This document shows positions 1-33,502 of a stretch of DNA of 64,000 nucleotides, piece by piece (positions within the stretch are counted from its first letter, which is position 1; every line of letters begins with the position of its first letter). A model generated the notes under the pieces. The model was not told the origin of the DNA and made no database searches. It saw nothing but the letters and a program-made list of their open reading frames with translations. This DNA comes from a virus. A program made the position numbers and the translations under genes. The stretch is from positions 33,490 to 97,489 of the IMG/VR virus record IMGVR_UViG_3300020034_000004, one strand, 5' to 3'.

Positions 1-238
1 CCACTTATGATACAACATTCCTGCGAAGAAATCAACACTTACGTTTGAACTAATGGCAAAGAGCGGGTAAGAATTTAAAGCATACACTTCATGCTCTAAA
101 AGATAATCCTGAGCCATCAAATATGAAATTCTATAGATATTGCTTTCTGTCTTGTTATGAATAACGGAATACTTTCCAATACCGTCGCTCCATGCTTTAT
201 CGATGTGCTCTTCAAGCGTCATTACTTACCTTTCTGTG

Positions 239-613
239 TGGAGTCGGGCGGATTCGAACCGCCGTGCTTCATTCTTCTAAATAAATCATTATACAGTCAT
301 TACTATTCATTGAGACTTTACAATTTGAAGGTGTCTGTGGAATAGCTCCCGCTACCTATAGCATTTTCTCCTGTGCCTTCAGGTTCAATTGTTATTAAAT
401 TGTAACTATTTTGGATTCGGACGGTATAGTTACCGTCCTAGCTAGTCTTTTATCAGACAGTTGCTAGGGAAGCAGAGCGTAGAATAGCCTCTGCCTCTGC
501 GACAATGTTATAATTATCTGCATTTATAGTTTGTTAGCTGTTTTAAGACTCTGCCAACTAAGTCTGACTGCGTATCTATTCTTCCAAACAAAGTCGAAAC
601 CAATTACGACCCC
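239..613 (-). ncRNA. ssrA: tmRNA
   Basis: 5' GGGGUCGUAAUUGGUUUCGAC and 3' T-arm GGCGGUUCGAAUCCGCC-CGACUCC-A, with a G3:U70 Ala acceptor. Internal tag ORF 521..453 after AUAAAU reads ADNYNIVAEAEAILRSASLATV*. Confidence 0.95.
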
Positions 614-1180: not shown

Positions 1181-1255
1181 TGCCCTTGAAGGGATTCGAA
1201 CCCTCATCATCCAATTACGGTCAAACTACTTAGGAGGTAGCGCCGGTACTCAGGT
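1181..1255 (-). tRNA. Non-canonical tRNA-Arg(CCT)-like gene: no D-arm in the normal position, degenerate acceptor stem
   Basis: Anticodon arm GCTAC-CT CCT AA-GTAGT; T-arm GAGGG-TTCGAAT-CCCTT; D-loop-like TAATTGGA in the variable region. Confidence 0.55.
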
Positions 1256-1386: not shown

Positions 1387-1453
1387 TGCCCCTAAGCGGA
1401 ATTGCACCGCTAACTGTCGGATTCGGATTCTGACGGTCAATCTTTCTAAGGGC
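1387..1453 (-). tRNA. D-armless tRNA-like gene, anticodon CCG (Arg)
   Basis: 7-bp acceptor GCCCTTA/TAGGGGC-A; T-arm AGCGG-TGCAATT-CCGCT; extended anticodon stem with loop AT CCG AA; no D-stem. Confidence 0.5.
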
Positions 1454-5055: not shown

Positions 5056-5145
5056 TTATTAAATTATTACATAGTTCTTCAATTAACCATTGCGCTACAT
5101 ACGCCTCTCTATCCAATAGATAATCTAGTTCTATTCGAAAACAAG

Positions 5146-5226
5146 TATCGCAGACGGGAATCGAACCCGCAAGCCGAAGCATCTGATTGAAAGTCAGACC
5201 ACCGTAACCAATACAGTACCTGCGAT
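5146..5226 (-). tRNA. tRNA-Glu(TTC) with an extra variable arm
   Basis: TCTGA-CT TTC AA-TCAGA; variable GC-TTCG-GC hairpin. Confidence 0.8.
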
Positions 5227-5845: not shown

Positions 5846-5853
5846 GCTCCTTG

Positions 5854-5937
5854 TACGCCAGGTGAGGTTCGAACTCACGTCGGGCTTTCGCCATCAGTTT
5901 AAAAGACTGTTCCCATCGGCCACTAGGGGACTGGCGC
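5854..5937 (-). tRNA. tRNA with TTT (Lys) anticodon on a class II (long variable arm) body
   Basis: CAGT-CT TTT AA-ACTG; variable arm GGC-GAAA-GCC. Confidence 0.75.
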
Positions 5938-8584: not shown

Positions 8585-8753
8585 TCCAATCTAGACCCTG
8601 GGCGCACTCAAGGCACGCCGGTATTTGAGTAGTGTTGTCTCCATCGAAACCTTTAATGGTCAACCGCCCGGTTGCAGGCACGTTGTTACATAATGAACAG
8701 AACTCAACACGCTCAATTGCGTTTTGGTCCAAGGTCTCTATACTCACAATCAA
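8553..8753 (-). CDS. Small CxxC/CxxC zinc-binding protein
   Basis: CSLC...CLEC; AAGGT RBS. Confidence 0.55.
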   Translation of the reverse strand: MIVSIETLDQNAIERVEFCSLCNNVPATGRLTIKGFDGDNTTQIPACLECAQGLDWSEVDESQRPK

Positions 8754-8927
8754 CTACCTTTACTCCGAGGTTATCTCCAACACTAAACGTGTCTTGGACT
8801 GCATCCCATGCGTCACCTTCATCGAAGGCATCGATTTCGAGCTTCATTATTACTTCATAAATAAACTTCTTCATGGAGCTTAGTATAGCACTAAAGGATA
8901 TCTAATGCCATACCGGTTTTTCAATGA

Positions 8928-8974
8928 AAAGACCTAAGAGAACTCAAAGCCTTACCCTATTCTCTTAGGTCTTT
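8928..8974. terminator. 15-bp inverted repeat downstream of the tRNA at 8976
   Basis: AAAGACCTAAGAGAA ... TTCTCTTAGGTCTTT. Confidence 0.6.
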
Positions 8975-8975
8975 G

Positions 8976-9052
8976 CGCGAGTGAAGGGATTCGAACCCCC
9001 ATTTTCATTCCGTTATGCACTAATGGTTCGTAGCCACCGCCATTACACCCGC
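8976..9052 (-). tRNA. Non-canonical tRNA-Arg(ACG) with D-loop displaced to the variable region
   Basis: Intact 7-bp acceptor GCGGGTG/CACTCGC-G; U8A9; only 5 nt before the anticodon arm GGTGG-CT ACG AA-CCATT; then AGTGCATAACGGAATGAAAAT; canonical T-arm. Confidence 0.7.
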
Positions 9053-9083
9053 ATTGTAATCGAAACTGTGATATGATGTAGTC

Positions 9084-9605
9084 ATGAATAATAACAGTTC
9101 GAAACATACATGTTTGCAGTGTTTCAACGAAACAATGAATCCTAAATTCTGTTCACGTTCTTGCTCTGCAACCTATAATAATACTATCATGCCCAAGAGG
9201 CAGCGTCAAGTCTGGGTTTTCAATTGTTCTCGATGCAATAAGCCTCAAAAGAAAAAATCTTTATCTGGATTATGTTCAATTTGTTGGAATGATGAACAAG
9301 ATAAAATTGCTGGAGAAATGACTCTTGGAGAATCCATAAAAGAATTTGCAAATCCCAGAAGTCGATACAATACTGTTAGACATCATGGACGAAAACTTTC
9401 CAAAATTTATAATCAATGCCAAGTTTGTGGATATGATAAAGTTCTTCAAGTTTGCCACATCAGACCAGTCTCTTCATTTCCTCTTGATACCCAAATAAAA
9501 GAAATAAACGCACCTGATAATATTGCAATATTATGTCCCAATCATCATTGTGAACTTGACCGAGGATTACTCGCACCCTCTGAGATACCAAATCGAGCGG
9601 CATGA
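9084..9605 (+). CDS. HNH homing endonuclease, opposite strand
   Basis: KFCSRSC zinc knuckle; CQVCG...CHIRP...NIAILCPNHH. Confidence 0.85.
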   Translation: MNNNSSKHTCLQCFNETMNPKFCSRSCSATYNNTIMPKRQRQVWVFNCSRCNKPQKKKSLSGLCSICWNDEQDKIAGEMTLGESIKEFANPRSRYNTVRHHGRKLSKIYNQCQVCGYDKVLQVCHIRPVSSFPLDTQIKEINAPDNIAILCPNHHCELDRGLLAPSEIPNRAA

Positions 9606-9606
9606 G

Positions 9607-9711
9607 ATTGTCTGGTACTCGCCAGAAGCTCTACCATTGAGACTTACTCTGCACTTACCTAGGATGGAGAGCCCGGATTCGAACCGACAACCTCCGGGTT
9701 TCCCAGACAAT
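9607..9711 (-). ncRNA. Circularly permuted tRNA-like RNA (YrlA-like module without a Ro motif)
   Basis: Order is T-arm (GTCGG-TTCGAAT-CCGG), closed acceptor, D-arm (CTC-AATGGTA-GAG); clamped by 9-bp ATTGTCTGG/CCAGACAAT. Confidence 0.6.
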
Positions 9712-9715
9712 AACG

Positions 9716-9786
9716 AGCGGATAACAGGACTCGAACCTGCTTCTCAAGATTGGAAATCTTGGGCACAACCTATATACCATATCCGC
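9716..9786 (-). tRNA. tRNA-Gly(TCC)
   Basis: CAAGA-TT TCC AA-TCTTG; U73. Confidence 0.9.
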
Positions 9787-9844
9787 ATTTGGTTCCGTTG
9801 TTTTGTTAACAGTATGGCGGCTCAACGGTTTCCATAAATTCCGG

Positions 9845-9916
9845 TGCCAGCACAGAGACTTGAACTCTGTTCCTTGGGACTTCACTCCAAAGCATATCCA
9901 TACATGCTCTGCTGAC
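9845..9916 (-). tRNA. tRNA-Phe(GAA)
   Basis: TTGGA-GT GAA GT-CCCAA; acceptor GTCAGCA/TGCTGGC. Confidence 0.8.
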
Positions 9917-9969
9917 AGGCACCAGCGGGTACCGACGCTTCGGTATACGTTCCCTAACTGGTACTAACT

Positions 9970-11596: not shown

Positions 11597-12685
11597 TCAG
11601 ATTCTACCGGCTGAGAAATCCGCTAGGACTCTTGGAGCCGCTGCATCAAATCCAACGAAGTCCATCATGATTCCTGGCATCGTTGGGTCCGCAATTGTGA
11701 ACTCAGTACCAGCAAAAGCAACTACAGCTAGTCTTGAGTCGCGACCAGAAGTCTGACGATACTTAACTAGGGACTGTGCTGGCTTCTCTGGCCCGGCCCA
11801 AGTTTCGTTATCGGTAAATACCATGAATGTATCAATGTTCTTGTTCTTCTCACGTGCGTGACGCATTGGCGCAGAACAATCAGTACCGCCTCCACTAAAG
11901 CGGCTAATTTTTTCCTTCACTGTTTCCAAAGAGTCGCGGTCAGAGACATTGACTGTCTTGACTTTCTCCACGTAAGTGCCAAAAGCATTGATTTCAACAT
12001 ATGGCTCTGTACGCAGAGTAACCATTGCCATTACTGCAGCAGCCCCGGCGTAGTCCATACCAACCAGACCAGCAGGAGCACCCCACGTCATGGACGCGGA
12101 AGTGTCAATGCTAATCATTGTGCGCTTGTTGGCAGGTTCAATTGTCTGGAAGGCGCTATAGAAACCATCTTCCAAGGCACCCAGAACTTTAGCGTTAACT
12201 GCCCATTCGCGATGACGAACTCCATAACCTCCCTGCGCGAGCGGACCTTTACCATAAATACCCAATGCGTTTGCGTAGGCAACTGGATGAACTCGACCAT
12301 TGATAATTCTCTCTTCGTTGGCCAGAGCCTGAGCCACATCGCCAGCGAACTTCAAATCATCAAACGCACCAATCTTAGCGAAACGAGTTACATTTCGTAA
12401 AAGTGCAGTTTGTCCCAATGCTCCATCGTAGAATAGAGTCTTCCAGACCTCTGCTTCTTTTAGGAACTGAGTTGGAACTGCTTCCCATGGAAGGTTCTTA
12501 TGAATCCTCAATGCATTCAGAACTTCTGACACATTCTGCGCAGACTGAACCATCTGAAATCCATGCAAAATCTCAGGAGCATCTTTAGAAATCTCTCCCT
12601 TAAGGATAAAGTCTCCCACCCTTGGGTTTATACCCTTCGGATGAGCTAGTCTAAACAAATCGGCGTGTCGCCATGTGTTACTCAT
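11597..12685 (-). CDS. rsr: Ro60/TROVE protein, C-terminal part (rest of HEAT ring plus vWA domain)
   Basis: WRHADLFRLAHPK, LPWE, ALLRN, RVHP, MIDAS DTSASM, GGGTDCSAPM, FTDNETW, MDFVGFD. Confidence 0.92.
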   Translation of the reverse strand: MSNTWRHADLFRLAHPKGINPRVGDFILKGEISKDAPEILHGFQMVQSAQNVSEVLNALRIHKNLPWEAVPTQFLKEAEVWKTLFYDGALGQTALLRNVTRFAKIGAFDDLKFAGDVAQALANEERIINGRVHPVAYANALGIYGKGPLAQGGYGVRHREWAVNAKVLGALEDGFYSAFQTIEPANKRTMISIDTSASMTWGAPAGLVGMDYAGAAAVMAMVTLRTEPYVEINAFGTYVEKVKTVNVSDRDSLETVKEKISRFSGGGTDCSAPMRHAREKNKNIDTFMVFTDNETWAGPEKPAQSLVKYRQTSGRDSRLAVVAFAGTEFTIADPTMPGIMMDFVGFDAAAPRVLADFSAGRI

Positions 12686-14171: not shown

Positions 14172-14262
14172 CGGAAGCGGGGTGGTTTCGAACCCCCAAG
14201 GGCCATAAGCCTCGCTCGCTTTCAAGGCGAGTGCCGTCGTCCAAAATTCGGCTTGCGCTTCC
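14172..14262 (-). tRNA. tRNA-Ser(TGA)
   Basis: CTCGC-CT TGA AA-GCGAG; long variable arm; G73. Confidence 0.9.
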
Positions 14263-14437: not shown

Positions 14438-14562
14438 TTGAGGATATGTTATAGAAATCGAGTTTTTAACGCTCTTCCATTAAGCTACAGACCGAAGTCC
14501 AGTGGGATTCGAACCCACATCTCTCTTTTGACATAAGATAATCGAATTCATTCGACCCTCAA
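14438..14562 (-). ncRNA. yrlA: YrlA-type Y RNA with full tRNA-like domain
   Basis: GAGGGUCGAAUG 5' strand; T-arm GUGGG-UUCGAAU-CCCAC; UUCG-closed acceptor; D-arm UAGCUUAAUGGAAGAGC; 3' AACAUAUCCUC. Confidence 0.88.
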
Positions 14563-15147: not shown

Positions 15148-15182
15148 ATTGGGTTGGTTTGAGAAACCATTTCCTAAAACAG

Positions 15183-15255
15183 TGCGGATGGTGGGATTCG
15201 AACCGACGCGCTCTTGTATCCAAAACAAGCAGGCTGCCCTACACCCACAATTCCA
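15183..15255 (-). tRNA. Degenerate tRNA-Pro(TGG)
   Basis: CTTGT-TT TGG AT-ACAAG and T-loop present; acceptor stem pairs poorly. Confidence 0.5.
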
Positions 15256-15356: not shown

Positions 15357-15790
15357 AGTGGCTAACGTCTTAACGGCTTTCACCGCTCCATCCACTGTTG
15401 TGAGCAACCTACGCTATTGATAAATTTAGAATAAATCATCTACGTTGGCGATTAATCTGCTCTGAACTCACAAGTCACAAAGTAGAATCTGATTCCAAGG
15501 ATTGGCTACCTCGTCGGCTACACGGTACCGTCAGACTATTAACTTTTCTCATCTACTAAGAATAAAGTGAGAGGAAGGGTGCTACCTTCACGCGGGGGGA
15601 GACCTTAGCATGTAAGATTACCCCACGACCATTCGTTTGCCGCTAAGCACAGATTCAACAAGTCGCTAAACTTGCCTCCTAGTCTCACCGCATTAGCCTA
15701 ACTAGGGTACTTCTGCCGAACGTGCATTACGAGCTACGTCTCCGACACTCGCATTTCTGCCACTCTCAGACGAAGGTGCTACCTTCGTCT
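15357..15790 (-). ncRNA. Candidate large (~430 nt) structured ncRNA
   Basis: No minus-strand ORF of 60 aa or more between tRNA-Trp and tRNA-Pro; two GAAGG-UAGCA-CCUUC hairpins; long-range GAGAG/CUCUC and AGUGG/CCACU helices. Confidence 0.55.
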
Positions 15791-16410: not shown

Positions 16411-16538
16411 AGGAGGTCTCATAACGGTTTTCATATCGTCACCACCCAGCCAAATGGAAGGATGTGCTAATTACACCGATGAAACCAAAGCACGGTGGCC
16501 TGCTGTCTTCCGACCCTGAACCTTTTCCGTACTTTTAT

Positions 16539-16567
16539 ATCTTAGCACATCACTCAAGCGATGTCAA
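16539..16567 (-). promoter_or_regulatory. sigma70-type promoter
   Basis: TTGACA-17-TAAGAT with TGn. Confidence 0.8.
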
Positions 16568-20119: not shown

Positions 20120-23100
20120 TCAGATAATAGTTGCTCGTTGTAGGTAATCAGCTAATTCAGAAGGCATTTTACGTTTAGGAGGAGTAATTACTTTGCCTGG
20201 TCTTTGCTGCTCAACCTTTTCAGCCTCTTCTTGACGCATCTTACGTCTCAAGTCTGCATACGTCAAAACTTCAACTTCCATGTTCACTGGCTTAGGAGTC
20301 AACGACACAGCGTTGAAGATGGCACCACACACTGCATCGGATAAATCCTTGCTGTTGTGAACAAACACCCCGCCTGAAATGGCAAAGTTCTCATATTCCT
20401 CAACCTCAAGGTCATAAACAGGAACATCAATCGCCAAATGAACCGGAACTACTGTGCGAATTTTGTGATTGTCACCAGCTTGAGAATTGATTGGCATCAA
20501 CCTATCAATTCCCGGTCTCAAATCCTTGGCATCTTTGTACTCTCCATTTCTAAGCATCCATCGGTGGTCAGGCGTACAACGAGTAACAGAACCGTTGTCC
20601 AGAATTACATCAACAAATTCATTAGTGTATTTACTTAGACGCCCTCGCGCCCTGCCTGGAACAATTCTTCCATCAGGGGTTGAGGAGTAAACCCACACCT
20701 CAGAACCGGCTAACTCTGAAATCATTGGCCTTGTTCCATCTAATAGAGGAATTCTAGTCTCTCCTACGAAACATCCTTTTCGAGGGTGGTCAACTTTTTT
20801 CTTAACAAGCTTAAGCTGTCCAAGTTCATCAACAAGTAGCTGGACCTTCGGTCCAGCTAGGCGATGGTCATACATAACAGACAAGAAGTCGTCATAATGC
20901 TTTAATGCTACTGACAAAACATCTGTTTTGATACCGTGCTCATTTTCTAGAATATTCATAGTGTCGTGACTATTATGGGTCACAAATCCGTCAGCAATAA
21001 ACTCTTCGTATTCTGGCACGCTAATGTCGAAAGTTTGTTCGTTTCCAATGGACTGGATATTTTTGATTTTCACCCACATTTGACCATTGTCAAAGACCCA
21101 TCTTTCTTTGTATTCTCGACTCTCCACAAGACTCAATGTGTTCTTTCTATCAATAGAGGGCTTGATAATGGCTAGAACCCTTTCCGCTTTTTTACCTTCG
21201 AAAGTCAATCTGTGAACCTCTCTTTCGGGAGAGTGACGCTTCTGACGCAACCTCGTTGGTTCTAGTTCAAGCGATAGAGAAATCCATACCAACTCCTTGA
21301 CAAGTTCTTCACTTATAGTATCAACAGTCAGGCGGTACCGCGTCTGACCTGACTTATCAATATAAGTCTGGATACCACCATCTCCATCAATATACCCGGC
21401 CATAAAGGCCGCACGGATTGAGGCTGAACCATTCAGTACAGAATGAGGTACTGTTTTATTTGCAGACTTGGCTGGAGTCAGCCCAGCGATTCTCATTCTT
21501 TCAATCATGTCTTTGTCCCAATAAGTGTAAGAGTAAGTGTCAACCTTTGAGCCAACGGTCTTGTCTTGAATCTTTCGTTGTACCGTATTCTTGAATCCCC
21601 ACCCATCAACCATTGCATCATGCATTCTGATTCGGAACTGCTCATCAGCAGTGGTAAAGTTGATTTGCTGATTTTTCCTATCATTAATCCAGCCGTCTGC
21701 AATCAAGCCACCCAAAGCATAAGCTTGGCTCTCGGTAATGGTGTCTACCCCGGACCACTCGTGAGTATTGTCAAGGAGCATTTCGTCTTCAATTGTCAGT
21801 TCTCCCATAGTTACCCAGCCCCTCTTCGTTAACACTCTATGATTTACCGTTGCCTCAAACTCATACCCCAACCTCGTAGTTACCCTGAATACCTCCTGAA
21901 TACCGGAATCTATTTTGGCTTCTACCTTTGCTATTCCATGTCTGGTACTTACTTCATCACCAACCTGAATATCCCTCATTCTTACCGGGCCGGACGGTGT
22001 GGACACAATAGCATTACCCTTTACGCAGTTCCATCGGTCGAAGGTAGTTAATTTAATATCGAAACCTCGCCTACGAAGAGCAATGATGTAGTCTCTAACG
22101 TCAGCAAAGTCAACAGATTTAGATTTAGTAGGTGTCCACCATCTAACTGCGTCTACGACTACGAACGGATGAATTTCTTTATAGAAATCTGAACCGATAC
22201 TAATCTCTACCCACTTTTCCACGTGAGCAATAGCTACAGCACAATGGTCATGCTTTTGTGCAAGGTCAACGTGAATAAAATATCTCACGCCTTCTTTTGG
22301 CTGAAACTTATCCAAGAAGATTCCATCTTCGTCTACACCATTTTGTAAAATGAATGCATCTTCGATTGCTTGCTTGTTCTTAAAGAATCCGTCAGACAAG
22401 TTGGATGGCATACACGCAAAACGACCCAATGCGTCTCCAGGGTCATCTGCGAAGTCTCTTGTATAGTCTTGAATCTTTCTATTTGGATTAACTTCCCAAG
22501 ACGGACGACGCAGGGCAAATGTCTTACGATGACTGTATCTAAGGATATGGTCTTCTTCCCAAGATACATCAACATAATTACCTTCGATTTCTCCAAGGTC
22601 AGGGTCTAGGTAAAGACGCTCTGTCCTAGTAATAACTTCTTTCTCAGCAATTTGTGCGTTGTAACGCTGCTGAATAAAGTCATCCTTGTAACGAGGGAAT
22701 GAAAGCAATACTAGTTTACCAAAATCAGGGAACCTAGATGTAATCGAACCCCTATACATCTTATAAATACCTGGGGCTGTCTTTTTCATTGCTTCTTCGT
22801 CATCGGTCATGCCTTCGCTTGGCATGGCAAATCCAGAAATCTCGTCCAAGATAACAACTAATGTGTTATATCCTTCGAACGCCTCTCGTTCAGAGTGACC
22901 AGAATAAACGGTTACGTTCTTATCGAATTCGATATAATTTGCCTTGGGGTCATATTTACCAGCGAACCATGGACAATTCTCAATCTTAGTCTTAAAGTTC
23001 TTAAAGAAAACTCGGAACGCCTGGTCGGCGTTAATAGCAATATTCAAAATGTCAATAGTGTCTCCGGTCTCATTTCCATAATATCGAGCCGGGTCTTTAA

Positions 23101-24535
23101 GGCAAAGCAATAGATAAACAATATACGCCACAGCGATGGTAGAGGTGAAGTCTTTACCAGAGTTATTTGTAATAATACCACCAGCATTCAGGACACCCTC
23201 AACGGCCACAGTTGTACACACCGTGTTCTCTTCAAAGCCTATATATTCCACACTTTCAATTCTATCAAAACGGTTATTTGGATACATTCCTTTAACATCA
23301 ATATTTAGAAGACGTTCAACTTTATCATTCTTGCCGGGAATATCCTTGATATTCTTTATAAGAAATTTAGCAATGGATGTGTCAGTAATACAAACCCTAT
23401 AGTTTGCATTATGTTTACCATCACTACGTTCTTGTCTATGTTTCTTAAATTTACTAATATATCCAGTTTTAAGCAATGCAAGATGTATGCCTTTAATGCA
23501 TGACTCGGAAGTCATTTCAATACCAATTTGAGCTTGAGTTAATTTTGTTGTGCCATTTCCTATTTTCTTACCCGGAGCAGTGAATGAAATCCAGCCATCA
23601 GTAGCAATAACACCTTTAATTAATTCATGCATATTATCGTTAGTCATAGATAGCCATTGGTCATTCCATTGCTTTTGAATATTATATTCTTGAATTAAAC
23701 CATGCTTTATAAACCATGACATCATGGCATTGATTCTGATTTGCCAGCATCCTTTACCAGAGGTTAGATACGCAACATTACCTCCCAATGATTCTACAAT
23801 TCTGACTATATCAGATTGCACTTCAGGAGTATTATTTGTAAACATTGGATTTTTATACCCTGATTTTCCCCTTTTAGCCCAGCTACCGTCTCCAATCATA
23901 TATCCAATTAATCGTGCCTCATCAGAAGTTATCTCGTATGGAGTTTCTTGCTCACTCCAACCGACCTTAAGTTCAATCAAGTCTCCCTTTTCTAATTGAG
24001 TAGCAGCAACATCTTGTGACTGCTTCTTAAGAGAATATGCCTTAGTGTGTTTTGTATTTTTCCATGTCGGAGTTTTATGATTTGGCCCACAATCAAAAGA
24101 ATATCCATGTTTTGTTGTAACTCGATAAATCTCATCTGCCCCTTCATCAAAAAAGGGATAGGCAGGCTGGACCTCATCACGAGAGTCACACATCCAACCA
24201 TCTTTACCCAAAGCATAAGAATCTACATAACCCTTATCAACTGAGTAGAATTTTTGTTTTGGAGAAAAATTTCCCTTGCCTAACTGCATAACAACTTCGT
24301 TGCATGTTTGCTTAAATCGCTTATGACCTTCCTCTTCACCATACAGAGATACCAAGGTGTCTTCTCTATAGATTTGAGACATAGCCTTTACCAGAGAGTA
24401 CTGATGCTTAGATAGTCTTCTAATATTAAGGAATCTATCAGAGGTTACAAATTCTTCAATATCTACCGGCACCTCATCCCATTCATCCTCTGACAAAGCA
24501 TTAAAAAAGTCTAGAAACTCAGTCATTGTATACAA
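20120..24535 (-). CDS. terL: Terminase large subunit containing three inteins (extein about 609 aa)
   Basis: Walker A GKG|SGK split by an intein; Walker B VILDE; nuclease HVDLA, TFDRWN|S, DHPRKG|SKD..DA. Confidence 0.92.
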   Translation of the reverse strand: MYTMTEFLDFFNALSEDEWDEVPVDIEEFVTSDRFLNIRRLSKHQYSLVKAMSQIYREDTLVSLYGEEEGHKRFKQTCNEVVMQLGKGNFSPKQKFYSVDKGYVDSYALGKDGWMCDSRDEVQPAYPFFDEGADEIYRVTTKHGYSFDCGPNHKTPTWKNTKHTKAYSLKKQSQDVAATQLEKGDLIELKVGWSEQETPYEITSDEARLIGYMIGDGSWAKRGKSGYKNPMFTNNTPEVQSDIVRIVESLGGNVAYLTSGKGCWQIRINAMMSWFIKHGLIQEYNIQKQWNDQWLSMTNDNMHELIKGVIATDGWISFTAPGKKIGNGTTKLTQAQIGIEMTSESCIKGIHLALLKTGYISKFKKHRQERSDGKHNANYRVCITDTSIAKFLIKNIKDIPGKNDKVERLLNIDVKGMYPNNRFDRIESVEYIGFEENTVCTTVAVEGVLNAGGIITNNSGKDFTSTIAVAYIVYLLLCLKDPARYYGNETGDTIDILNIAINADQAFRVFFKNFKTKIENCPWFAGKYDPKANYIEFDKNVTVYSGHSEREAFEGYNTLVVILDEISGFAMPSEGMTDDEEAMKKTAPGIYKMYRGSITSRFPDFGKLVLLSFPRYKDDFIQQRYNAQIAEKEVITRTERLYLDPDLGEIEGNYVDVSWEEDHILRYSHRKTFALRRPSWEVNPNRKIQDYTRDFADDPGDALGRFACMPSNLSDGFFKNKQAIEDAFILQNGVDEDGIFLDKFQPKEGVRYFIHVDLAQKHDHCAVAIAHVEKWVEISIGSDFYKEIHPFVVVDAVRWWTPTKSKSVDFADVRDYIIALRRRGFDIKLTTFDRWNCVKGNAIVSTPSGPVRMRDIQVGDEVSTRHGIAKVEAKIDSGIQEVFRVTTRLGYEFEATVNHRVLTKRGWVTMGELTIEDEMLLDNTHEWSGVDTITESQAYALGGLIADGWINDRKNQQINFTTADEQFRIRMHDAMVDGWGFKNTVQRKIQDKTVGSKVDTYSYTYWDKDMIERMRIAGLTPAKSANKTVPHSVLNGSASIRAAFMAGYIDGDGGIQTYIDKSGQTRYRLTVDTISEELVKELVWISLSLELEPTRLRQKRHSPEREVHRLTFEGKKAERVLAIIKPSIDRKNTLSLVESREYKERWVFDNGQMWVKIKNIQSIGNEQTFDISVPEYEEFIADGFVTHNSHDTMNILENEHGIKTDVLSVALKHYDDFLSVMYDHRLAGPKVQLLVDELGQLKLVKKKVDHPRKGCFVGETRIPLLDGTRPMISELAGSEVWVYSSTPDGRIVPGRARGRLSKYTNEFVDVILDNGSVTRCTPDHRWMLRNGEYKDAKDLRPGIDRLMPINSQAGDNHKIRTVVPVHLAIDVPVYDLEVEEYENFAISGGVFVHNSKDLSDAVCGAIFNAVSLTPKPVNMEVEVLTYADLRRKMRQEEAEKVEQQRPGKVITPPKRKMPSELADYLQRATII
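20354..20773 (-). mobile_element. TerL intein 3, mini-intein (140 aa)
   Basis: CFVGET...TPDHRW...VYDLEV...VHN|S; no endonuclease motifs. Confidence 0.9.
20972..22027 (-). mobile_element. TerL intein 2 with LAGLIDADG endonuclease (352 aa)
   Basis: CVKGN...TVNHRV...LGGLIADG...MAGYIDGDG...TFDISV...THN|S. Confidence 0.92.
23162..24271 (-). mobile_element. TerL intein 1, class 3-like with LAGLIDADG endonuclease (370 aa)
   Basis: Starts with Asn (NFSPK); block B NHKTPTW; block F VCTTV; ends ITNN|S; IGYMIGDG and IKGVIATDG motifs. Confidence 0.85.
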
Positions 24536-30290: not shown

Positions 30291-30749
30291 TTATTGCCAA
30301 TTAACGGCTAGCATCATGTTTATAACAGACCTATTGGTTTGAATCTGTTGCTTAGTGGCGCAGCTATTGCAATCAACACCATCGTTGTAACGAGACAATT
30401 TCGTTGTCTGGCATGTTCTGCAATATCTAGTCATTCCATTACGTTGGTCGCGTCTGGCGTAGTACTTTTCCATGATTCTTCGGTTGGTCGCGATTCGACA
30501 GCACTCAGCAGAACAGTATTTCATGTTGTGAGTATTTCGCTGGAATACAATTTCGCAGTCTGTTCTTGCACAAGTTATCGCGGGAGTGTTTTCCATATTC
30601 ACACCCCCTCTAATGGTTTCTTGAGAAACTCCATATTTATTTTTATGATATCCAGATAACTTCTTTCCGTTAGGATTAACAATCATGCCATCATCTGTAA
30701 TGATGTATCCTCTAGAGACAGCTTCTCTTATCCTCTCGGGGTGGTTCAC
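30291..30749 (-). CDS. Hypothetical Cys-rich protein (start uncertain)
   Basis: KYCSAEC, CRTC, CNSC. Confidence 0.6.
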   Translation of the reverse strand: MNHPERIREAVSRGYIITDDGMIVNPNGKKLSGYHKNKYGVSQETIRGGVNMENTPAITCARTDCEIVFQRNTHNMKYCSAECCRIATNRRIMEKYYARRDQRNGMTRYCRTCQTTKLSRYNDGVDCNSCATKQQIQTNRSVINMMLAVNWQ

Positions 30750-33502
30750 TTAGGTATCTCCAAAGGAGGTAAGTTTACCGTACCCGGATTTGGGTCATTC
30801 TTACTATTGCTTCTTGCAAGCCCTTCCCAACATGTATTACGTACCGGGCATCCCTTGCACTGTACACTGGACTTTATAAACGGTCTCGTTGGCAATTTGC
30901 CTTCATCAGCATTCAGCTTTACTGCTCGCATCCATTCCAACGTGTCATCTACAAACTTTTTACGCTCATCAGTCATCTTAATAGGTAGGATGAATATTTC
31001 GTGTGTATTTCCCGTGATGGTTGGCTTTCCATTTTGTTCCATAACCCAATATCCATTATTTGTTGTTGGACACCAAACATCTCCTTCGTAGTCAGAGTCA
31101 ATCACCAACCCAGCATTAAATGCTGTTCTCATTCCTGAATAGCAAGACACTTTGCCTTCGTTAATATTTGTTACAACACCATTCAAATAATGAGCAATCT
31201 GAAAACTTTCCTTTACAGCATTGTCTAGTTGACCAAAAGATTCTTTTCTTCCGGCAATAGCCCACGAACCATCCCCACCTATAAGACCACGAATATAGGC
31301 CAAGCGTGACTGATGATTCATTTTGTAGGGCAGCGTTGCAGAAATCTTCTTGCTTGAATACACCCTACGAAGTTCTTCTACCAACGCAGTCTTCGTTTTC
31401 AACCTATAGCCAATCTTTCTGCCTCCACGAGTAATGATAGTTCTTTCACTTTCATCCAATAAAGATTCCAATGCTTCTTGACCGATTAACTTTTCCTGAT
31501 AAATCTGATAATACTTTCTTCCGTCTTTATCAGTTGTAATGCATCCATCAGATGCAATCCATCCAATAACTTCAGAAACCTTTTCATCAAGAGAATCTTC
31601 AGGTTCATGATACAAGCTGGCTACTCGCGGAATCAAACTTCTTGTCTTCAAATCCTTAGCCTGGTACTCTTTCATAACACCCTTATAATCTTTAGCAATC
31701 CAAGTATGGTCTTCAGTTGAAATAAAAGATTGGTGTTTGTTTCCAATAGATACCATTTTTGTGTCTGGAATCTTAACAACTTTATCTCTATACGTCTCCC
31801 ATTCCAGGAAATTCCCATCTGGATTAAAGGTAAGTATTTTCGTCTTTCCTTCAACCAAATCTTCGTGATTCATCCATCCAGAATCTGTCATTATTCTTGA
31901 ATAGGTGGGTACGCAGTTTTTATTCTCTGTAAGGAAGAAACCCTTGTCCTTACCTGTTACATACATATAAATTAGGAGCTGTAATAATTGATACCCCGGC
32001 ACCGTGTTTTGGGTGGCTCGTATTTCCCATGTTTCTGCTCTGGTTGTCTTAATTTCAACAACCACTTCTTCATTCTTCCAATTGACTATGGCGTCAATAA
32101 ACCCACCAATAGGCGGGTCTTGATGTTGCACTGGAATTTCTGAATCAACCAAAATGCCAGCCTCATCCAATACCTTGGCTAGACGAACTCCTGCATCGGA
32201 ACCAGCATTCATATTGGCCATAGAAGGAGCATCTGTATCATATTCGAATTCGGCACCATTGAATGCATAGTGCCAATATCTTGGACAGTTCATGGTCAGA
32301 ATACCATCGACCAAAGAAAATCTTTCAGTTTCCGGTTGAACAACGCAAAAAACTTCTTCTGTTCTTCCTGTATCTGTAATCGAAACAACTTTCCATTTTC
32401 TCGGAGACCTCGCGGGCTTTTCGCACAAAGAGATGTGGTAATCTCGGTGATGAGACAATAAAAAGAAATCTCCAGGAAGTTCCTGTGATGATAAAGAAAT
32501 ACTCCACTGGTCATAATCTCTACCAAGTTTATTTCTAACTGAATGAAGCATAGAGCCGGTATTAATACCCAGGATTGCACAAACATTTCTAACAGCCATA
32601 ATATCTTGCTTTCGGTGAGAAGTGATTGAAGCACTTCCTTCATCATGAATATTACCATCAGCGGCGAAATATCCAGCCAACCATCCATAAAGATATGAAG
32701 TTGATTCATTCAGCGGAGGCAATGATTTGTAAGAGCGAGGCATGCCATAAACCTTACGACACTCGATATTATTGTTCTTCATGAAATCAGTATCTTCTCC
32801 AGAATGAAGATAAACTTCGCCTACAGAATATCCATCGAAATACTTCAATAATTCAAAATCCTTATTCCCATAGAGAACAACATATGAGTCTGTCTTGCGT
32901 TGACCAAAGCCTTGGTCACAAGAACCATCTCCAAACACAACACCAGCACGAATACCATCGTGACTCATGGTGTTTAAGTCTACTCTGCTTTTTGGATTCG
33001 AGTGCCACAGGAGATTGCCTTCAGATAAATTTTCTGTATTAATAATCACAGGTACTGCTCGTGAAGCAGATGTTGACCAAGAACCAGATTGGACAATCCA
33101 CCTGTGTTCAGGAGTTGCTAAAATCTCTCTTTCGACACCATCTCTTTCAACAACAACAGACATTAACTTTTGTTTTCCAAAAGATTCTACTTTGGCTTGC
33201 TTCCAACCTCCCGTTTGAGCAAAATCATACTTTGTTGACTTCATATTCACTGAACCTGTCCATACGACAACATCTTGGTCAACCACTTCAGATAAAGTTT
33301 TAACACCTTCATCTGTAATGAACTCTGTGTTTCCAGAGAAACATGACCCTGAGTAACCAAGACCTGACGGTGCGAACGAAGTCTTCTTGGTCCGCTTCGA
33401 TGGACGCTTCATAGCCTTTTCCAAGGCGGTACCAAATTCTTCGGTGCCAAAAGCCTTGTTTATTGCATGATGTTCATTTGCTTGAACTAATTTCTTTACC
33501 AT
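30746..33502 (-). CDS. Cas4/RecB-like PD-(D/E)XK exonuclease with two inteins
   Basis: Extein CPRYW, GFIDA, EIKT, QLLIY, and CKGC..C Fe-S ligands. Confidence 0.88.
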   Translation of the reverse strand: MVKKLVQANEHHAINKAFGTEEFGTALEKAMKRPSKRTKKTSFAPSGLGYSGSCFSGNTEFITDEGVKTLSEVVDQDVVVWTGSVNMKSTKYDFAQTGGWKQAKVESFGKQKLMSVVVERDGVEREILATPEHRWIVQSGSWSTSASRAVPVIINTENLSEGNLLWHSNPKSRVDLNTMSHDGIRAGVVFGDGSCDQGFGQRKTDSYVVLYGNKDFELLKYFDGYSVGEVYLHSGEDTDFMKNNNIECRKVYGMPRSYKSLPPLNESTSYLYGWLAGYFAADGNIHDEGSASITSHRKQDIMAVRNVCAILGINTGSMLHSVRNKLGRDYDQWSISLSSQELPGDFFLLSHHRDYHISLCEKPARSPRKWKVVSITDTGRTEEVFCVVQPETERFSLVDGILTMNCPRYWHYAFNGAEFEYDTDAPSMANMNAGSDAGVRLAKVLDEAGILVDSEIPVQHQDPPIGGFIDAIVNWKNEEVVVEIKTTRAETWEIRATQNTVPGYQLLQLLIYMYVTGKDKGFFLTENKNCVPTYSRIMTDSGWMNHEDLVEGKTKILTFNPDGNFLEWETYRDKVVKIPDTKMVSIGNKHQSFISTEDHTWIAKDYKGVMKEYQAKDLKTRSLIPRVASLYHEPEDSLDEKVSEVIGWIASDGCITTDKDGRKYYQIYQEKLIGQEALESLLDESERTIITRGGRKIGYRLKTKTALVEELRRVYSSKKISATLPYKMNHQSRLAYIRGLIGGDGSWAIAGRKESFGQLDNAVKESFQIAHYLNGVVTNINEGKVSCYSGMRTAFNAGLVIDSDYEGDVWCPTTNNGYWVMEQNGKPTITGNTHEIFILPIKMTDERKKFVDDTLEWMRAVKLNADEGKLPTRPFIKSSVQCKGCPVRNTCWEGLARSNSKNDPNPGTVNLPPLEIPK
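31007..31915 (-). mobile_element. Exonuclease intein B with LAGLIDADG (303 aa)
   Basis: CVPTY...TEDHTW...GWIASDG...RGLIGGDG...VWCPT...TGN|T. Confidence 0.88.
32288..33343 (-). mobile_element. Exonuclease intein A with LAGLIDADG (352 aa)
   Basis: CFSGN...TPEHRW...GVVFGDG...LAGYFAADG...VFCVV...TMN|C. Confidence 0.9.

What the first reader, a model, noticed from the sequence alone, without database searches (positions are those of the whole stretch)
8976..9052. tRNA-Arg(ACG) with a rewired core: D-loop moved 3' of the anticodon arm
Seen: acceptor, anticodon and T arms are intact, but only AUGGC lies between A9 and the anticodon stem. The variable region reads AG-UGCAU-AACGGAAUG-AAAAU, so AUG can pair with CAU, followed by a D-loop-like AACGGAA. 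The gene at 1181-1255 has the same layout (CCGGC...ACCG-UAAUUGGAUG) with a compensatory U-A/C-G pair. No normal ACG tRNA exists in this window. Established: D-loop G18G19 docks on the T-loop and A20 is the ArgRS identity element; both copies keep GGA. Inference: an alternative topology rebuilding the L-shape, possibly evading host tRNases.
Basis: partly seen in the sequence, partly recalled or inferred. Interest (0 to 1): 0.82.

Follow-up and report, generated by a model that had tools for sequence, protein, structure and literature searches.

The report
Rewired, non-cloverleaf phage arginine tRNA
This soil phage's only reader of the CGU/CGC/CGA arginine codons is a conserved tRNA gene with no D hairpin: half of the D stem and the whole D loop lie after the anticodon arm, a layout that gene finders miss and that I found in no paper.

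Summary
Window 8976-9052 (minus strand) has intact acceptor, anticodon (ACG) and T arms. Only 5 nt lie between A9 and the anticodon stem, and a 21-nt region follows it. ARAGORN misses the gene, and Rfam tRNA scores 27.0 bits against a threshold of 29.

It is not a one-off. At least 85 viral contigs share the layout, as do cultured Rhizobium, Rhodococcus, Microbacterium and Streptomyces phages, where it is unannotated.

- **Short helix.** A helix closing around the anticodon arm covaries. Its two inner pairs form in 99 of 100 distinct sequences, with several pair types.
- **Conserved core.** U8, A9, a D-loop-like AAYUGG, an A/U pair before the T stem and the T loop are kept.
- **Identity nucleotide.** The base after GG is A in all 94 arginine members (ACG, CCU, UCU) and U in all 6 Ile/Met members. 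This tracks the known ArgRS identity nucleotide A20.
- **Gap filling.** These genes fill isoacceptor gaps. Rhizobium phage RHph_I1_18 has no other arginine tRNA.

Most likely this is a working tRNA with a strand-swapped, permuted core. Charging and use in translation are inferred, not shown, and nuclease evasion is untested. The second copy (1181-1255, CCU) has the same core but a broken acceptor stem. This scan found the family before on other DNA.

The parts
8976..9052 (-). Whole rewired tRNA-Arg(ACG) gene, 77 nt including discriminator G; CCA is not encoded
   Evidence: Sequence; Rfam tRNA 27.0 bits; family model R1 72.3 bits (the model contains this sequence); BLAST match to Rhodococcus phage NiceHouse
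9046..9052 (-). Acceptor stem 5' strand GCGGGUG; pairs with 8977-8983
   Evidence: 7 pairs. In the family alignment A1 the acceptor is 99.6% paired, and all 7 pairs show compensatory changes
9044..9045 (-). U8 A9
   Evidence: UA in 91 of 91 distinct family members
9040..9043 (-). 5' strand of the short helix (A-U-G-G). It takes the place of D-stem positions 22-25 and runs straight on into the anticodon stem after one C (9039)
   Evidence: A-U, U-A and G-C pair with 9015-9017; G9040 faces G9018. The two inner pairs form in 99 of 100 members. Covariation score 0.336 against 0.071 in shuffles
9022..9038 (-). Anticodon arm GGUGG-CUACGAA-CCAUU; anticodon ACG at 9029-9031
   Evidence: Sequence. The anticodon stem is 95-99% paired in the family, and all 5 pairs covary
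9019..9021 (-). 3' linker AGU (3-5 nt and A-rich in the family); takes the place of variable-loop positions 44-47
   Evidence: Linker lengths and A-richness; the assigned role is inferred
9015..9018 (-). 3' strand of the short helix (G-C-A-U); takes the place of D-stem positions 10-13 and always ends in U right before the D-loop-like segment
9002..9014 (-). D-loop-like segment AACGGAAUGAAAA: A14/A15-like AA, G18G19-like GG at 9010-9011, A20-like A at 9009, invariant A at 9002
   Evidence: AAYUGG-type motif in all members. The base after GG is A in 94 of 94 Arg members and U in 6 of 6 Ile/Met members. The A before the last nucleotide is present in 91 of 91
9001..9001 (-). U48-like nucleotide just before the T stem
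   Evidence: Paired states with the A15-like base: A/U 84, G/U 4, G/C 2, A/C 1. G/C occurs in L061 and L064:6090
8984..9000 (-). T arm GGGGG-UUCGAAU-CCCUU
   Evidence: Sequence. T stem 98.8% paired in A1. The T loop was fixed by the search pattern in the ACG set
8976..8983 (-). Acceptor 3' strand CACUCGC plus discriminator G
8928..8974 (-). Strong hairpin starting 2 nt after the tRNA end, followed by UUUU; a terminator-like 3' boundary
   Evidence: Fold -23.7 kcal/mol, z = -3.76, 0 of 200 shuffles as stable. The simple terminator scan did not list it because the loop is too long for its rule
9181..9209 (-). Promoter-like site (TTGACG-17-TAGTAT with TG) about 130 nt upstream; a consensus match only
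1181..1255 (-). Second element with the same core (CGG/CCG helix, UAAUUGGA, anticodon CCU) but a defective acceptor stem (4 of 7 pairs); probably a decayed paralogue
   Evidence: An intact rewired Arg(CCU) exists in the related record G001 at 106150-106226

Best explanation
The gene encodes a working elongator tRNA-Arg(ACG) whose core is wired in a different strand order from the cloverleaf.

**Proposed order of segments.** In the ordinary order, segment 10-21 (D-stem 5' strand plus D loop) comes before segment 22-47 (D-stem 3' strand, anticodon arm, variable loop). Here the two segments are swapped:
1. After U8-A9 comes a strand that pairs like 22-25 and runs straight into the anticodon stem.
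2. After the anticodon arm comes a short A-rich linker.
3. Next comes the partner strand, which pairs like 10-13.
4. Next comes a single-stranded D-loop-like segment (A14 A15 Y G18 G19 A20 ... A21).
5. Last comes a U48-like base and the T arm.

**Predicted shape.** The secondary structure is a three-way junction: the acceptor stem, a long arm made of the short helix stacked on the anticodon stem, and the T arm. It is nested, not a pseudoknot. The GG segment would dock on the T loop, so the usual L-shape is rebuilt.

**Predicted function.** I infer that the host ArgRS charges it through A20 and C35. I also infer that A34 is deaminated to inosine, so that it reads CGU, CGC and CGA. These make up 50% of this phage's arginine codons.

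**Shown versus inferred.**
- Shown: the conserved layout, covariation of all four helices, the conserved core nucleotides, the link between anticodon and the A20-like base, and the gap-filling distribution.
- Inferred: the 3D fold, processing, charging, inosine formation and use on the ribosome.
For: **1. Family size and spread.**
- 85 of these have a perfect 7-bp acceptor with only 7-8 nt before the anticodon stem.
- Members also occur, unannotated, in Rhizobium phage RHph_I1_18, Rhodococcus phage NiceHouse (under a 'hypothetical protein'), Microbacterium phage Zooman and Streptomyces phage Stigma.

**2. Covariation.**
- On the MAFFT alignment A1, the acceptor is 99.6% paired, the anticodon stem 95.1% and the T stem 98.8%, with many compensatory changes.
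- On the gapless alignment A3, the two inner pairs of the short helix form in 46/46 and 45/46 rows, with three pair types each.
- The helix-only covariation score is 0.336, against 0.071 +/- 0.020 in shuffles (0 of 500) and at most 0.066 when the partner is slid.
- A grep that places no condition on this helix finds both inner pairs in 99 of 100 distinct sequences.
- There are 38 distinct helix types; 112 of 152 cells pair, against 66.8 +/- 5.1 in shuffles.

**3. Core nucleotides.**
- U8 A9 occurs in 91/91 and the A before the last variable nucleotide in 91/91.
- The 15:48-like states are A/U 84, G/U 4 and G/C 2.

**4. Identity element.** The base after GG is A in 94/94 Arg members (ACG, CCU, UCU) and U in 6/6 Ile/Met(CAU) members. 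One search gives the same result for UCG members. A20 as an ArgRS determinant is established knowledge, recalled from memory.

**5. Gap filling.**
- This record has no other CGN reader.
- NiceHouse has no canonical ACG.
- Stigma has canonical GCG, TCG and CCT, and its only UCU is rewired.
- RHph_I1_18 has 24 canonical tRNAs but no Arg; the rewired ACG and UCU are its only Arg tRNAs.

**6. Genomic context.** The genes lie in dense arrays of high-scoring ordinary tRNAs. Many encode CCA. This one is followed by a strong hairpin.

**7. De-permutation in silico.** Moving the block [3' strand + D-loop-like segment] in front of the 5' strand turns 65 of 91 members, including this one, into cloverleaves that ARAGORN calls with the right anticodon. 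ARAGORN calls only 4 of 91 as found in nature.
Against: - No RNA data exist. No RNA run holds the stretch, so expression, end maturation, CCA addition, charging and I34 are all unobserved.
- The short helix has only two always-formed pairs. The outer layers pair in 37% and 48% of members, so by itself it is marginally stable.
- Single-sequence folding of this copy is uninformative (z = -0.86) and prefers another fold.
- RNAalifold on the MAFFT alignment does not predict the short helix.
- Zooman carries an ordinary tRNA-Arg(ACG) next to the rewired one, so gap filling is not universal.
- The de-permutation test is weakly specific. With the D-loop segment shuffled, ARAGORN still of 91.
- The invariance of CUACGAA and GGUUCGAAUCC in the ACG set was imposed by my search pattern.
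- An earlier check in this scan of a related claim on other DNA reported that 'part of it fell'. I could not see which part.
Confidence: 0.75

Rival explanations
1. A tRNA look-alike that is made but not used for decoding. It could be a decoy that soaks up a host tRNA-targeting nuclease or modification enzyme, or a regulator or primer that needs only the anticodon arm and the acceptor/T domain.
For: - Standard detectors reject it.
- Zooman carries it next to an ordinary tRNA-Arg(ACG).
- The window is rich in other tRNA-like oddities and RNA-repair or rescue genes, including tmRNA and Ro60 with a Y-RNA-like hit.
- No charging data exist.
Against: - A decoy has no need to keep the ArgRS identity base, nor to switch it to U when the anticodon is Ile or Met.
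- It has no need to keep a 7-bp acceptor with encoded CCA.
- It has no need to fill exactly the missing isoacceptors, as in RHph_I1_18, Stigma, NiceHouse and this phage.
Confidence: 0.15
2. A decaying tRNA gene: a former tRNA-Arg that lost its D arm and picked up junk in the variable region.
For: The second element at 1181-1255 does look decayed, with a 4/7 acceptor. The Rfam score of the main gene is below threshold.
Against: About 100 distinct sequences from phages of unrelated hosts keep the same layout. They show compensatory changes in four helices and invariant core bases. That pattern is purifying selection, not decay.
Confidence: 0.04
3. In this particular copy the true fold is different: a perfect 6-bp hairpin UAAUGG/CCAUUA with a 13-nt loop, so that 'ACG' is not an anticodon.
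For: The two hexamers are exact reverse complements in this sequence. The minimum-energy fold of the single sequence is also not the proposed one.
Against: The alternative pairing is lost in the closest relatives (L109 and L119 have GCUGG/CCAGU; NiceHouse has CCUGG/CCAGC). In those relatives the 5-bp anticodon stem covaries perfectly.
Confidence: 0.02

Closest known systems
Ordinary bacterial and phage tRNA-Arg(ACG) (class I cloverleaf, Rfam RF00005), for example the gene at 89043-89115 of Microbacterium phage Zooman
   Same: 7-bp acceptor, 5-bp anticodon stem with loop CUACGAA, 5-bp T stem with a UUCGAAU loop, U8, A9, an AAYUGGA motif with the ArgRS identity base A20, C35, and about the same total length.
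   Different: There is no D hairpin; only 5 nt lie between A9 and the anticodon stem. The D-stem strands sit on either side of the anticodon arm. The D-loop motif is a single strand between the anticodon arm and the T arm. It falls below the Rfam threshold and ARAGORN misses it.
D-armless mitochondrial tRNA-Ser(AGY/UCU) of animals and nematodes (reviewed in PMC7609411)
   Same: No D hairpin between the acceptor and anticodon stems; the secondary structure is a three-way junction; still a decoding tRNA.
   Different: The mitochondrial forms have a short connector, reduced or altered T arms and a flexible, less rigid shape (PMC7609411). The phage family keeps GG, the full TPsiC-type loop, U8/A14-like bases and a relocated D-stem strand. 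It would also work with bacterial, not mitochondrial, machinery. The review does not mention phages (0 occurrences).
Allo-tRNAs and other non-canonical cloverleaves from metagenomes and phages (PMC5389517)
   Same: Natural tRNAs from bacteria and their phages that depart from the 7/5 cloverleaf and were found by sequence mining.
   Different: Allo-tRNAs change the lengths of the acceptor and T stems (8/4, 9/3) but keep a D arm in the normal place. Here the stem lengths are normal and the order of the core strands differs.
Circularly permuted tRNA genes of the red alga Cyanidioschyzon merolae (recalled from memory, not checked here)
   Same: The order of tRNA segments in the gene differs from the standard order.
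   Different: In the alga the permutation is removed by processing through a circular intermediate, and the mature tRNA is an ordinary cloverleaf. Here no cut-and-rejoin can be inferred, and the mature RNA itself would be permuted within its core.
Candidate structured RNA DNAVirus_2961 of PMC10690425
   Same: A conserved IMG/VR motif that only sometimes overlaps ARAGORN tRNA-Arg calls. Its authors described it as possibly a tRNA with a non-canonical structure.
   Different: I could not see its sequence or structure because no supplements are held, so identity with this family is untested. The paper gives no architecture.

Membership tests
Canonical tRNA (cloverleaf, Rfam RF00005) | 7-bp acceptor stem closing the molecule | tested here: met
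   GCGGGUG/CACUCGC, 7 pairs; 99.6% paired in the family
Canonical tRNA (cloverleaf, Rfam RF00005) | 5-bp anticodon stem with a 7-nt loop, U33 and a purine at 37 | tested here: met
   GGUGG-CUACGAA-CCAUU; covaries
Canonical tRNA (cloverleaf, Rfam RF00005) | 5-bp T stem with a UUCRAnn loop | tested here: met
   GGGGG-UUCGAAU-CCCUU
Canonical tRNA (cloverleaf, Rfam RF00005) | D hairpin between position 9 and the anticodon stem | tested here: not met
   Only 5 nt (AUGGC) lie there. Rfam aligns the D arm as deleted
Canonical tRNA (cloverleaf, Rfam RF00005) | Score at or above the Rfam gathering threshold (29 bits), or a call by ARAGORN | tested here: not met
   27.0 bits. Not among ARAGORN's 21 genes. 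ARAGORN of 91 family members
tRNA-Arg identity set (A20, C35, G36/U36; established for E. coli, recalled from memory) | A at the position after G18G19 | tested here: met
   GGA in this gene. A in 94/94 Arg-anticodon members and U in 6/6 Ile/Met members
tRNA-Arg identity set (A20, C35, G36/U36; established for E. coli, recalled from memory) | C35 and G36 | tested here: met
   Anticodon ACG
tRNA-Arg identity set (A20, C35, G36/U36; established for E. coli, recalled from memory) | Arginylation by ArgRS | not testable with these tools
   Needs an enzyme assay or a charged-tRNA assay
Rewired phage tRNA family (as delimited here and in earlier reports of this scan) | acceptor - UA - 4-nt strand - 1 nt - anticodon arm - 3-5 nt linker - 4-nt partner strand ending in U - AAYUGG(A/U) - N - A - Y - T arm | tested here: met
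   This gene fits segment by segment. R1 scores it 72.3 bits (with the model containing it). Independent support: 82% identity to the NiceHouse member, and 29 more members of the same (A/U/G)UGGC...GCAU-AACGGA subfamily
Rewired phage tRNA family (as delimited here and in earlier reports of this scan) | The two inner pairs of the short helix are formed | tested here: met
   U-A and G-C here; 99 of 100 in the family
D-armless mitochondrial tRNA | No D hairpin | tested here: met
D-armless mitochondrial tRNA | Loss or reduction of the D-loop/T-loop elbow contacts, and an organellar setting | tested here: not met
   GG and a full UUCGAAU loop are kept. The carrier is a tailed-phage contig from soil

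The most novel reading that the evidence does not exclude
Bacterial ArgRS, EF-Tu and ribosomes routinely use a natural tRNA whose core is circularly permuted, with the D-stem strands swapped and the D loop moved behind the anticodon arm. Phages keep this design because it is invisible to a host defence or enzyme that reads the ordinary D arm, while it still decodes CGN, AGR and AUH codons.
Probability: 0.2. Interest if true: 0.92.

Novelty: new variant of a known kind. Interest (0 to 1): 0.8.

Why it matters
Apart from truncated mitochondrial tRNAs, the cloverleaf is treated as universal for decoding tRNAs. A 2020 review of non-canonical tRNAs lists nothing like this and does not mention phages.

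- **Structural question.** If these RNAs are charged and used, the L-shape can be built from a different strand order. RNase P, CCA-adding enzyme, TadA, ArgRS or IleRS, EF-Tu and the ribosome would all tolerate that order. This makes directly testable which tRNA core contacts are really required.
- **Annotation.** Phage tRNA counts are incomplete. RHph_I1_18 appears to lack arginine tRNAs only because both of its copies are of this type. In NiceHouse the gene is annotated as a protein.
- **Engineering.** The scaffold is a natural candidate for orthogonal tRNA design.
- **Tractability.** Four cultured phage-host pairs carry the gene, so the experiments are straightforward.

Tried and rejected
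- **Expression data.** No RNA holder was listed for window 8600-9950; only four soil DNA runs from two studies hold it. I therefore did not lay reads.
- **Single-sequence folding.** For this copy it gave z = -0.86 and a non-tRNA minimum, which is uninformative.
- **RNAalifold on A1.** It returns only the three classical helices. MAFFT puts the UACCC subgroup one column out of register, which also lowered the short helix to 66% paired. I therefore re-counted on a gapless alignment and with register-free scripts.
- **Model-fitted alignment A2.** I used it only to cut segments, not for pair counts, because it is fitted to the structure.
- **Alternative hairpin UAAUGG/CCAUUA.** Rejected because it is not conserved.
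- **Two further pairs in this subfamily.** C14-G and G13-Y, with a bulged G, are compatible with a U/C alternation opposite G. They have no double compensation, and two A13 variants are uncompensated. I leave this open.
- **Pseudoknot reading.** Earlier notes used this description. It is not needed here, because the helix is nested around the anticodon arm.
- **Terminator scan.** It listed nothing. The downstream hairpin was found by folding instead.
- **De-permutation control.** With the D-loop segment shuffled, ARAGORN still called 51 of 91. The test therefore speaks to stem complementarity and spacing, not to the D-loop sequence.
- **Literature.** Eight searches and two papers read found no description. 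Subscription journals are not covered. Supplements for PMC10690425 are not held.
- **Cellular genomes.** Only about 6 of 120 pattern hits are family members, all in dense tRNA arrays on MAG contigs. I found no evidence for a chromosomal housekeeping copy.

Full report
**What is in the sequence**

The window is the right-hand 64 kb of a 97.5-kb IMG/VR phage record from soil. It has 42% G+C and is estimated 74% complete. Its DnaB helicase is about 50% identical to those of the Streptomyces phages BillNye and Stigma (family Stanwilliamsviridae).

The minus strand carries a long tRNA array. ARAGORN finds 20 tRNAs plus a tmRNA in the window, and 29 tRNAs in the whole record.

The minus strand of 8976-9052 reads GCGGGUG-UA-AUGGC-GGUGG-CUACGAA-CCAUU-AGUGCAUAACGGAAUGAAAAU-GGGGG-UUCGAAU-CCCUU-CACUCGC-G. 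The acceptor, anticodon (ACG) and T arms are intact. Only five nucleotides separate A9 from the anticodon stem, and 21 nucleotides follow the anticodon arm. ARAGORN does not call it. Rfam's tRNA model gives 27.0 bits, below the 29-bit threshold, with the D arm deleted and a 17-nt insertion.

**It is a member of a large family**

I scanned IMG/VR for CUACGAA, 20-34 nt, then GGUUCGAAUCC. This spacing is too long for an ordinary class I tRNA-Arg.
- 85 of the matches have a perfect 7-bp acceptor stem that starts only 19-20 nt before the anticodon loop. That leaves no room for a D arm.
- They collapse to 64 distinct sequences with one common layout: acceptor, UA, 5 (rarely 6) nt, anticodon arm, 3-5 nt that are mostly A-rich, 3 nt plus U, AAYUGGA, 4-12 nt ending in A then U (rarely C), T arm, acceptor. 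CCA is often encoded.
- The rest of the 119 are ordinary tRNAs with D arms and long variable arms, or are unrelated.

BLAST against cultured phages found members in Rhizobium phage RHph_I1_18, Microbacterium phage Zooman and Rhodococcus phage NiceHouse. A covariance model (R1) found more members in Zooman, RHph_I1_18, NiceHouse and Streptomyces phage Stigma. In the records I inspected none is annotated as a tRNA. In NiceHouse a 'hypothetical protein' is drawn over it.

The same pattern in 185,579 prokaryote genomes gave only about 6 family members among 120 hits. All six lie in dense tRNA arrays on MAG contigs. The family is therefore essentially phage-borne or borne on mobile tRNA arrays.

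**The helices covary, including the new one**

On the MAFFT alignment of 65 sequences (A1), the acceptor is 99.6% paired, the anticodon stem 95.1% and the T stem 98.8%. Compensatory changes occur in 14 of 17 pairs.

It forms between the four nucleotides after A9 and the four nucleotides just before the AAYUGG motif; the last of these four is always U.
- On a gapless 34-column alignment (A3, 46 distinct rows), the two inner pairs form in 46/46 and 45/46 rows. The pair types are C-G, U-A and G-C for one, and C-G, G-C and A-U for the other.
- The outer pairs form in about a third of rows.
- For this helix alone the covariation score is 0.336. Shuffles give 0.071 +/- 0.020 (0 of 500 reach the observed value), and slid partners give at most 0.066.
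- Across 91 distinct members there are 38 different helix sequences, such as ACC/GGU, GCC/GGC, CAC/GUG, CGC/GCG, UCC/GGA, ACU/AGU, CGG/CCG and AUG/CAU.
- A grep that sets no condition on this helix finds both inner pairs in 99 of 100 distinct sequences.

The helix is short and its outer layers are often U-U, C-A or G-G. Ordinary D stems also tolerate a non-standard 13:22 pair.

In this gene the layers are A-U, U-A, G-C and G-G. Two further pairs with a bulged G are possible in its subfamily but are not proven.

The perfect alternative hairpin UAAUGG/CCAUUA in this copy is not conserved in its nearest relatives and is rejected.

**The single strand behind the anticodon arm behaves like a D loop**
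- U8 and A9 are invariant (91/91).
- The segment after the helix begins with AA or AG and then GG, like A14 R15 Y16 Y17 G18 G19.
- The last two nucleotides before the T stem are A (91/91) and U or C.
- The R15-like and Y48-like bases are A/U in 84 members, G/U in 4 and G/C in 2. This is the pattern of the Levitt pair.
- The model also found members with other anticodons: Arg UCG, CCU and UCU, Ile GAU and UAU, and CAU.
- The base after GG is A in all 94 arginine members and U in all 6 Ile/Met members (one search shows the same for UCG members).

A20 is the classical ArgRS identity nucleotide; that is established knowledge, recalled from memory. The relocated segment is therefore under the selection expected of a real D loop in a tRNA that is charged by its cognate synthetase.

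**Strand-order reading**

In a cloverleaf the order is 9, [10-13, 14-21], [22-25, 26, 27-43, 44-47], 48. Here the two bracketed blocks are swapped. The strand after A9 continues 5' to 3' into the anticodon stem, as 22-25 does. The strand after the linker continues 5' to 3' into the A14-like base, as 10-13 does. The last A-U before the T stem fits A21 followed by U48.

As a check, I moved the block [3' strand + D-loop-like segment] in front of the 5' strand in silico. ARAGORN then of 91 members as ordinary tRNAs with the correct anticodon, including this gene as tRNA-Arg(acg). It calls only 4 of 91 in their natural order. Most failures have D-loop-like segments that are too long for ARAGORN. 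With the D-loop segment shuffled it still. The test therefore supports stem complementarity and spacing only.

The 3D fold is an inference; I had no RNA modelling tool.

**Evidence that it is used**

The genes fill gaps in otherwise near-complete phage tRNA sets.

| Phage | Ordinary Arg tRNAs (ARAGORN) | Rewired Arg tRNAs |
|---|---|---|
| This record | CCT, TCT | ACG (the only CGN reader) |
| NiceHouse | CCT | ACG, plus a long-linker UCU |
| Stigma | GCG, TCG, CCT | UCU (its only UCU) |
| RHph_I1_18 | none, among 24 tRNAs covering 18 amino acids | ACG, UCU |
| Zooman | ACG, CCG, CCT | ACG, UCU |

For NiceHouse, ARAGORN also reports a 101-nt 'tct' call that overlaps the long-linker rewired gene. 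Zooman is the exception to strict gap filling, because it has an ordinary ACG beside the rewired one.

CGU, CGC and CGA make up 50% of the arginine codons in this phage's long ORFs. The gene is followed 2 nt downstream by a strong hairpin plus UUUU (-23.7 kcal/mol, z = -3.76). No RNA data are available.

**The second element**

Window 1181-1255 has the same core (C-CGG-C ... CCG-U-AAUUGGA, anticodon CCU, A after GG) and scores 44.4 bits with R1. Its acceptor stem has only 4 of 7 pairs, and no better 5' strand lies upstream. An ordinary tRNA-Arg(CCU) lies about 400 nt away at 734-806. The related record G001 has an intact rewired Arg(CCU). I read the second element as a decayed paralogue.

**Comparison with what is known**

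The RNA works like a class I tRNA-Arg but fails the defining D-hairpin feature and the Rfam and ARAGORN thresholds. The nearest described relatives in architecture are the D-armless mitochondrial tRNA-Ser species. These have lost the elbow contacts and are flexible (PMC7609411), whereas the phage family keeps them. Allo-tRNAs (PMC5389517) alter stem lengths, not strand order.

Eight full-text searches found no description. A 2023 survey of viral structured RNAs mentions a motif that sometimes overlaps tRNA-Arg calls. I could not compare it with this family.

This scan has reported the same family several times before on other DNA. One related claim was later marked 'part of it fell', without details that I could see. 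I therefore rest only on the tests above and do not call the fold a pseudoknot.

**Verdict**

The topology reading is supported by covariation, core conservation, the identity-base correlation and gap filling. Function as a charged decoding tRNA is likely (about 0.75) but not shown. Nuclease evasion is untested.

Noticed in passing
window 1387-1453 (-): A 67-nt tRNA-like gene (Rfam tRNA 26.9 bits, below threshold; missed by ARAGORN). It has a good 7-bp acceptor and the loop AUCCGAA, giving anticodon CCG (Arg). Only about 12 nt without GG stand in place of the D arm, and the T loop is UGCAAUU. It may be a second kind of non-canonical arginine tRNA, one that would read CGG.
   Followed up: partly
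window 14173-14262 (-): A 90-nt class II-like tRNA missed by ARAGORN (Rfam tRNA-Sec model 34.4 bits, below threshold). It has acceptor GGAAGCG/CGCUUCC and the loop CUUGAAA, giving anticodon UGA (Ser), with an unusual D region.
   Followed up: no
window 11597-12685 (-) and 14452-14548 (-): A Ro60 orthologue (TROVE plus Ro60 vWA domains, E = 1.5e-48) lies near a weak Y-RNA-like (YrlA) hit of 28.9 bits. This suggests a phage-borne Ro/Y RNA module inside the tRNA array.
   Followed up: no
window 236-613 (-): A phage-encoded tmRNA (Rfam 96.5 bits) with tag ADNYNIVAEAEAILRSASLATV lies at the end of the tRNA array.
   Followed up: no
window 15564-15789 (-) and 16458-16551 (-): Sub-threshold Rfam hits to manA RNA (42.1 bits against a threshold of 55.2) and to bacterial small SRP RNA (36.4 against 40) lie between tRNA genes. 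manA RNA scores above threshold in tRNA arrays of related contigs (L019, L009).
   Followed up: no
window 5145-5226, 5853-5937, 15182-15248 (-): Several ARAGORN tRNAs have odd lengths: Glu(ttc) 82 nt, Lys(ttt) 85 nt and Pro(tgg) 67 nt. This suggests further non-standard arms in the array.
   Followed up: no
window 20120-24535 (-) and 30746-33502 (-): Large ORFs carry intein and LAGLIDADG homing-endonuclease domains, so mobile elements sit inside phage genes.
   Followed up: no
G003:C1:111879-111961 and NiceHouse 94900-94982: A long-linker variant of the rewired Arg(UCU) has a conserved 12-nt linker, CCAKUAUAAUCA, between the anticodon arm and the 3' strand. ARAGORN reports the NiceHouse copy as a 101-nt tRNA-Arg(tct).
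   Followed up: partly
L012:1177-1643: A GOLLD RNA (Rfam 187.5 bits) sits inside the tRNA array of another viral contig that carries a rewired tRNA-Arg.
   Followed up: no
L022, L032, L035, L112, L120 (viral contigs): These contigs carry tRNA-Arg(ACG) genes with a normal D arm plus a long hairpin variable arm. This is a class II-like arginine tRNA and a different oddity from the one studied here.
   Followed up: no
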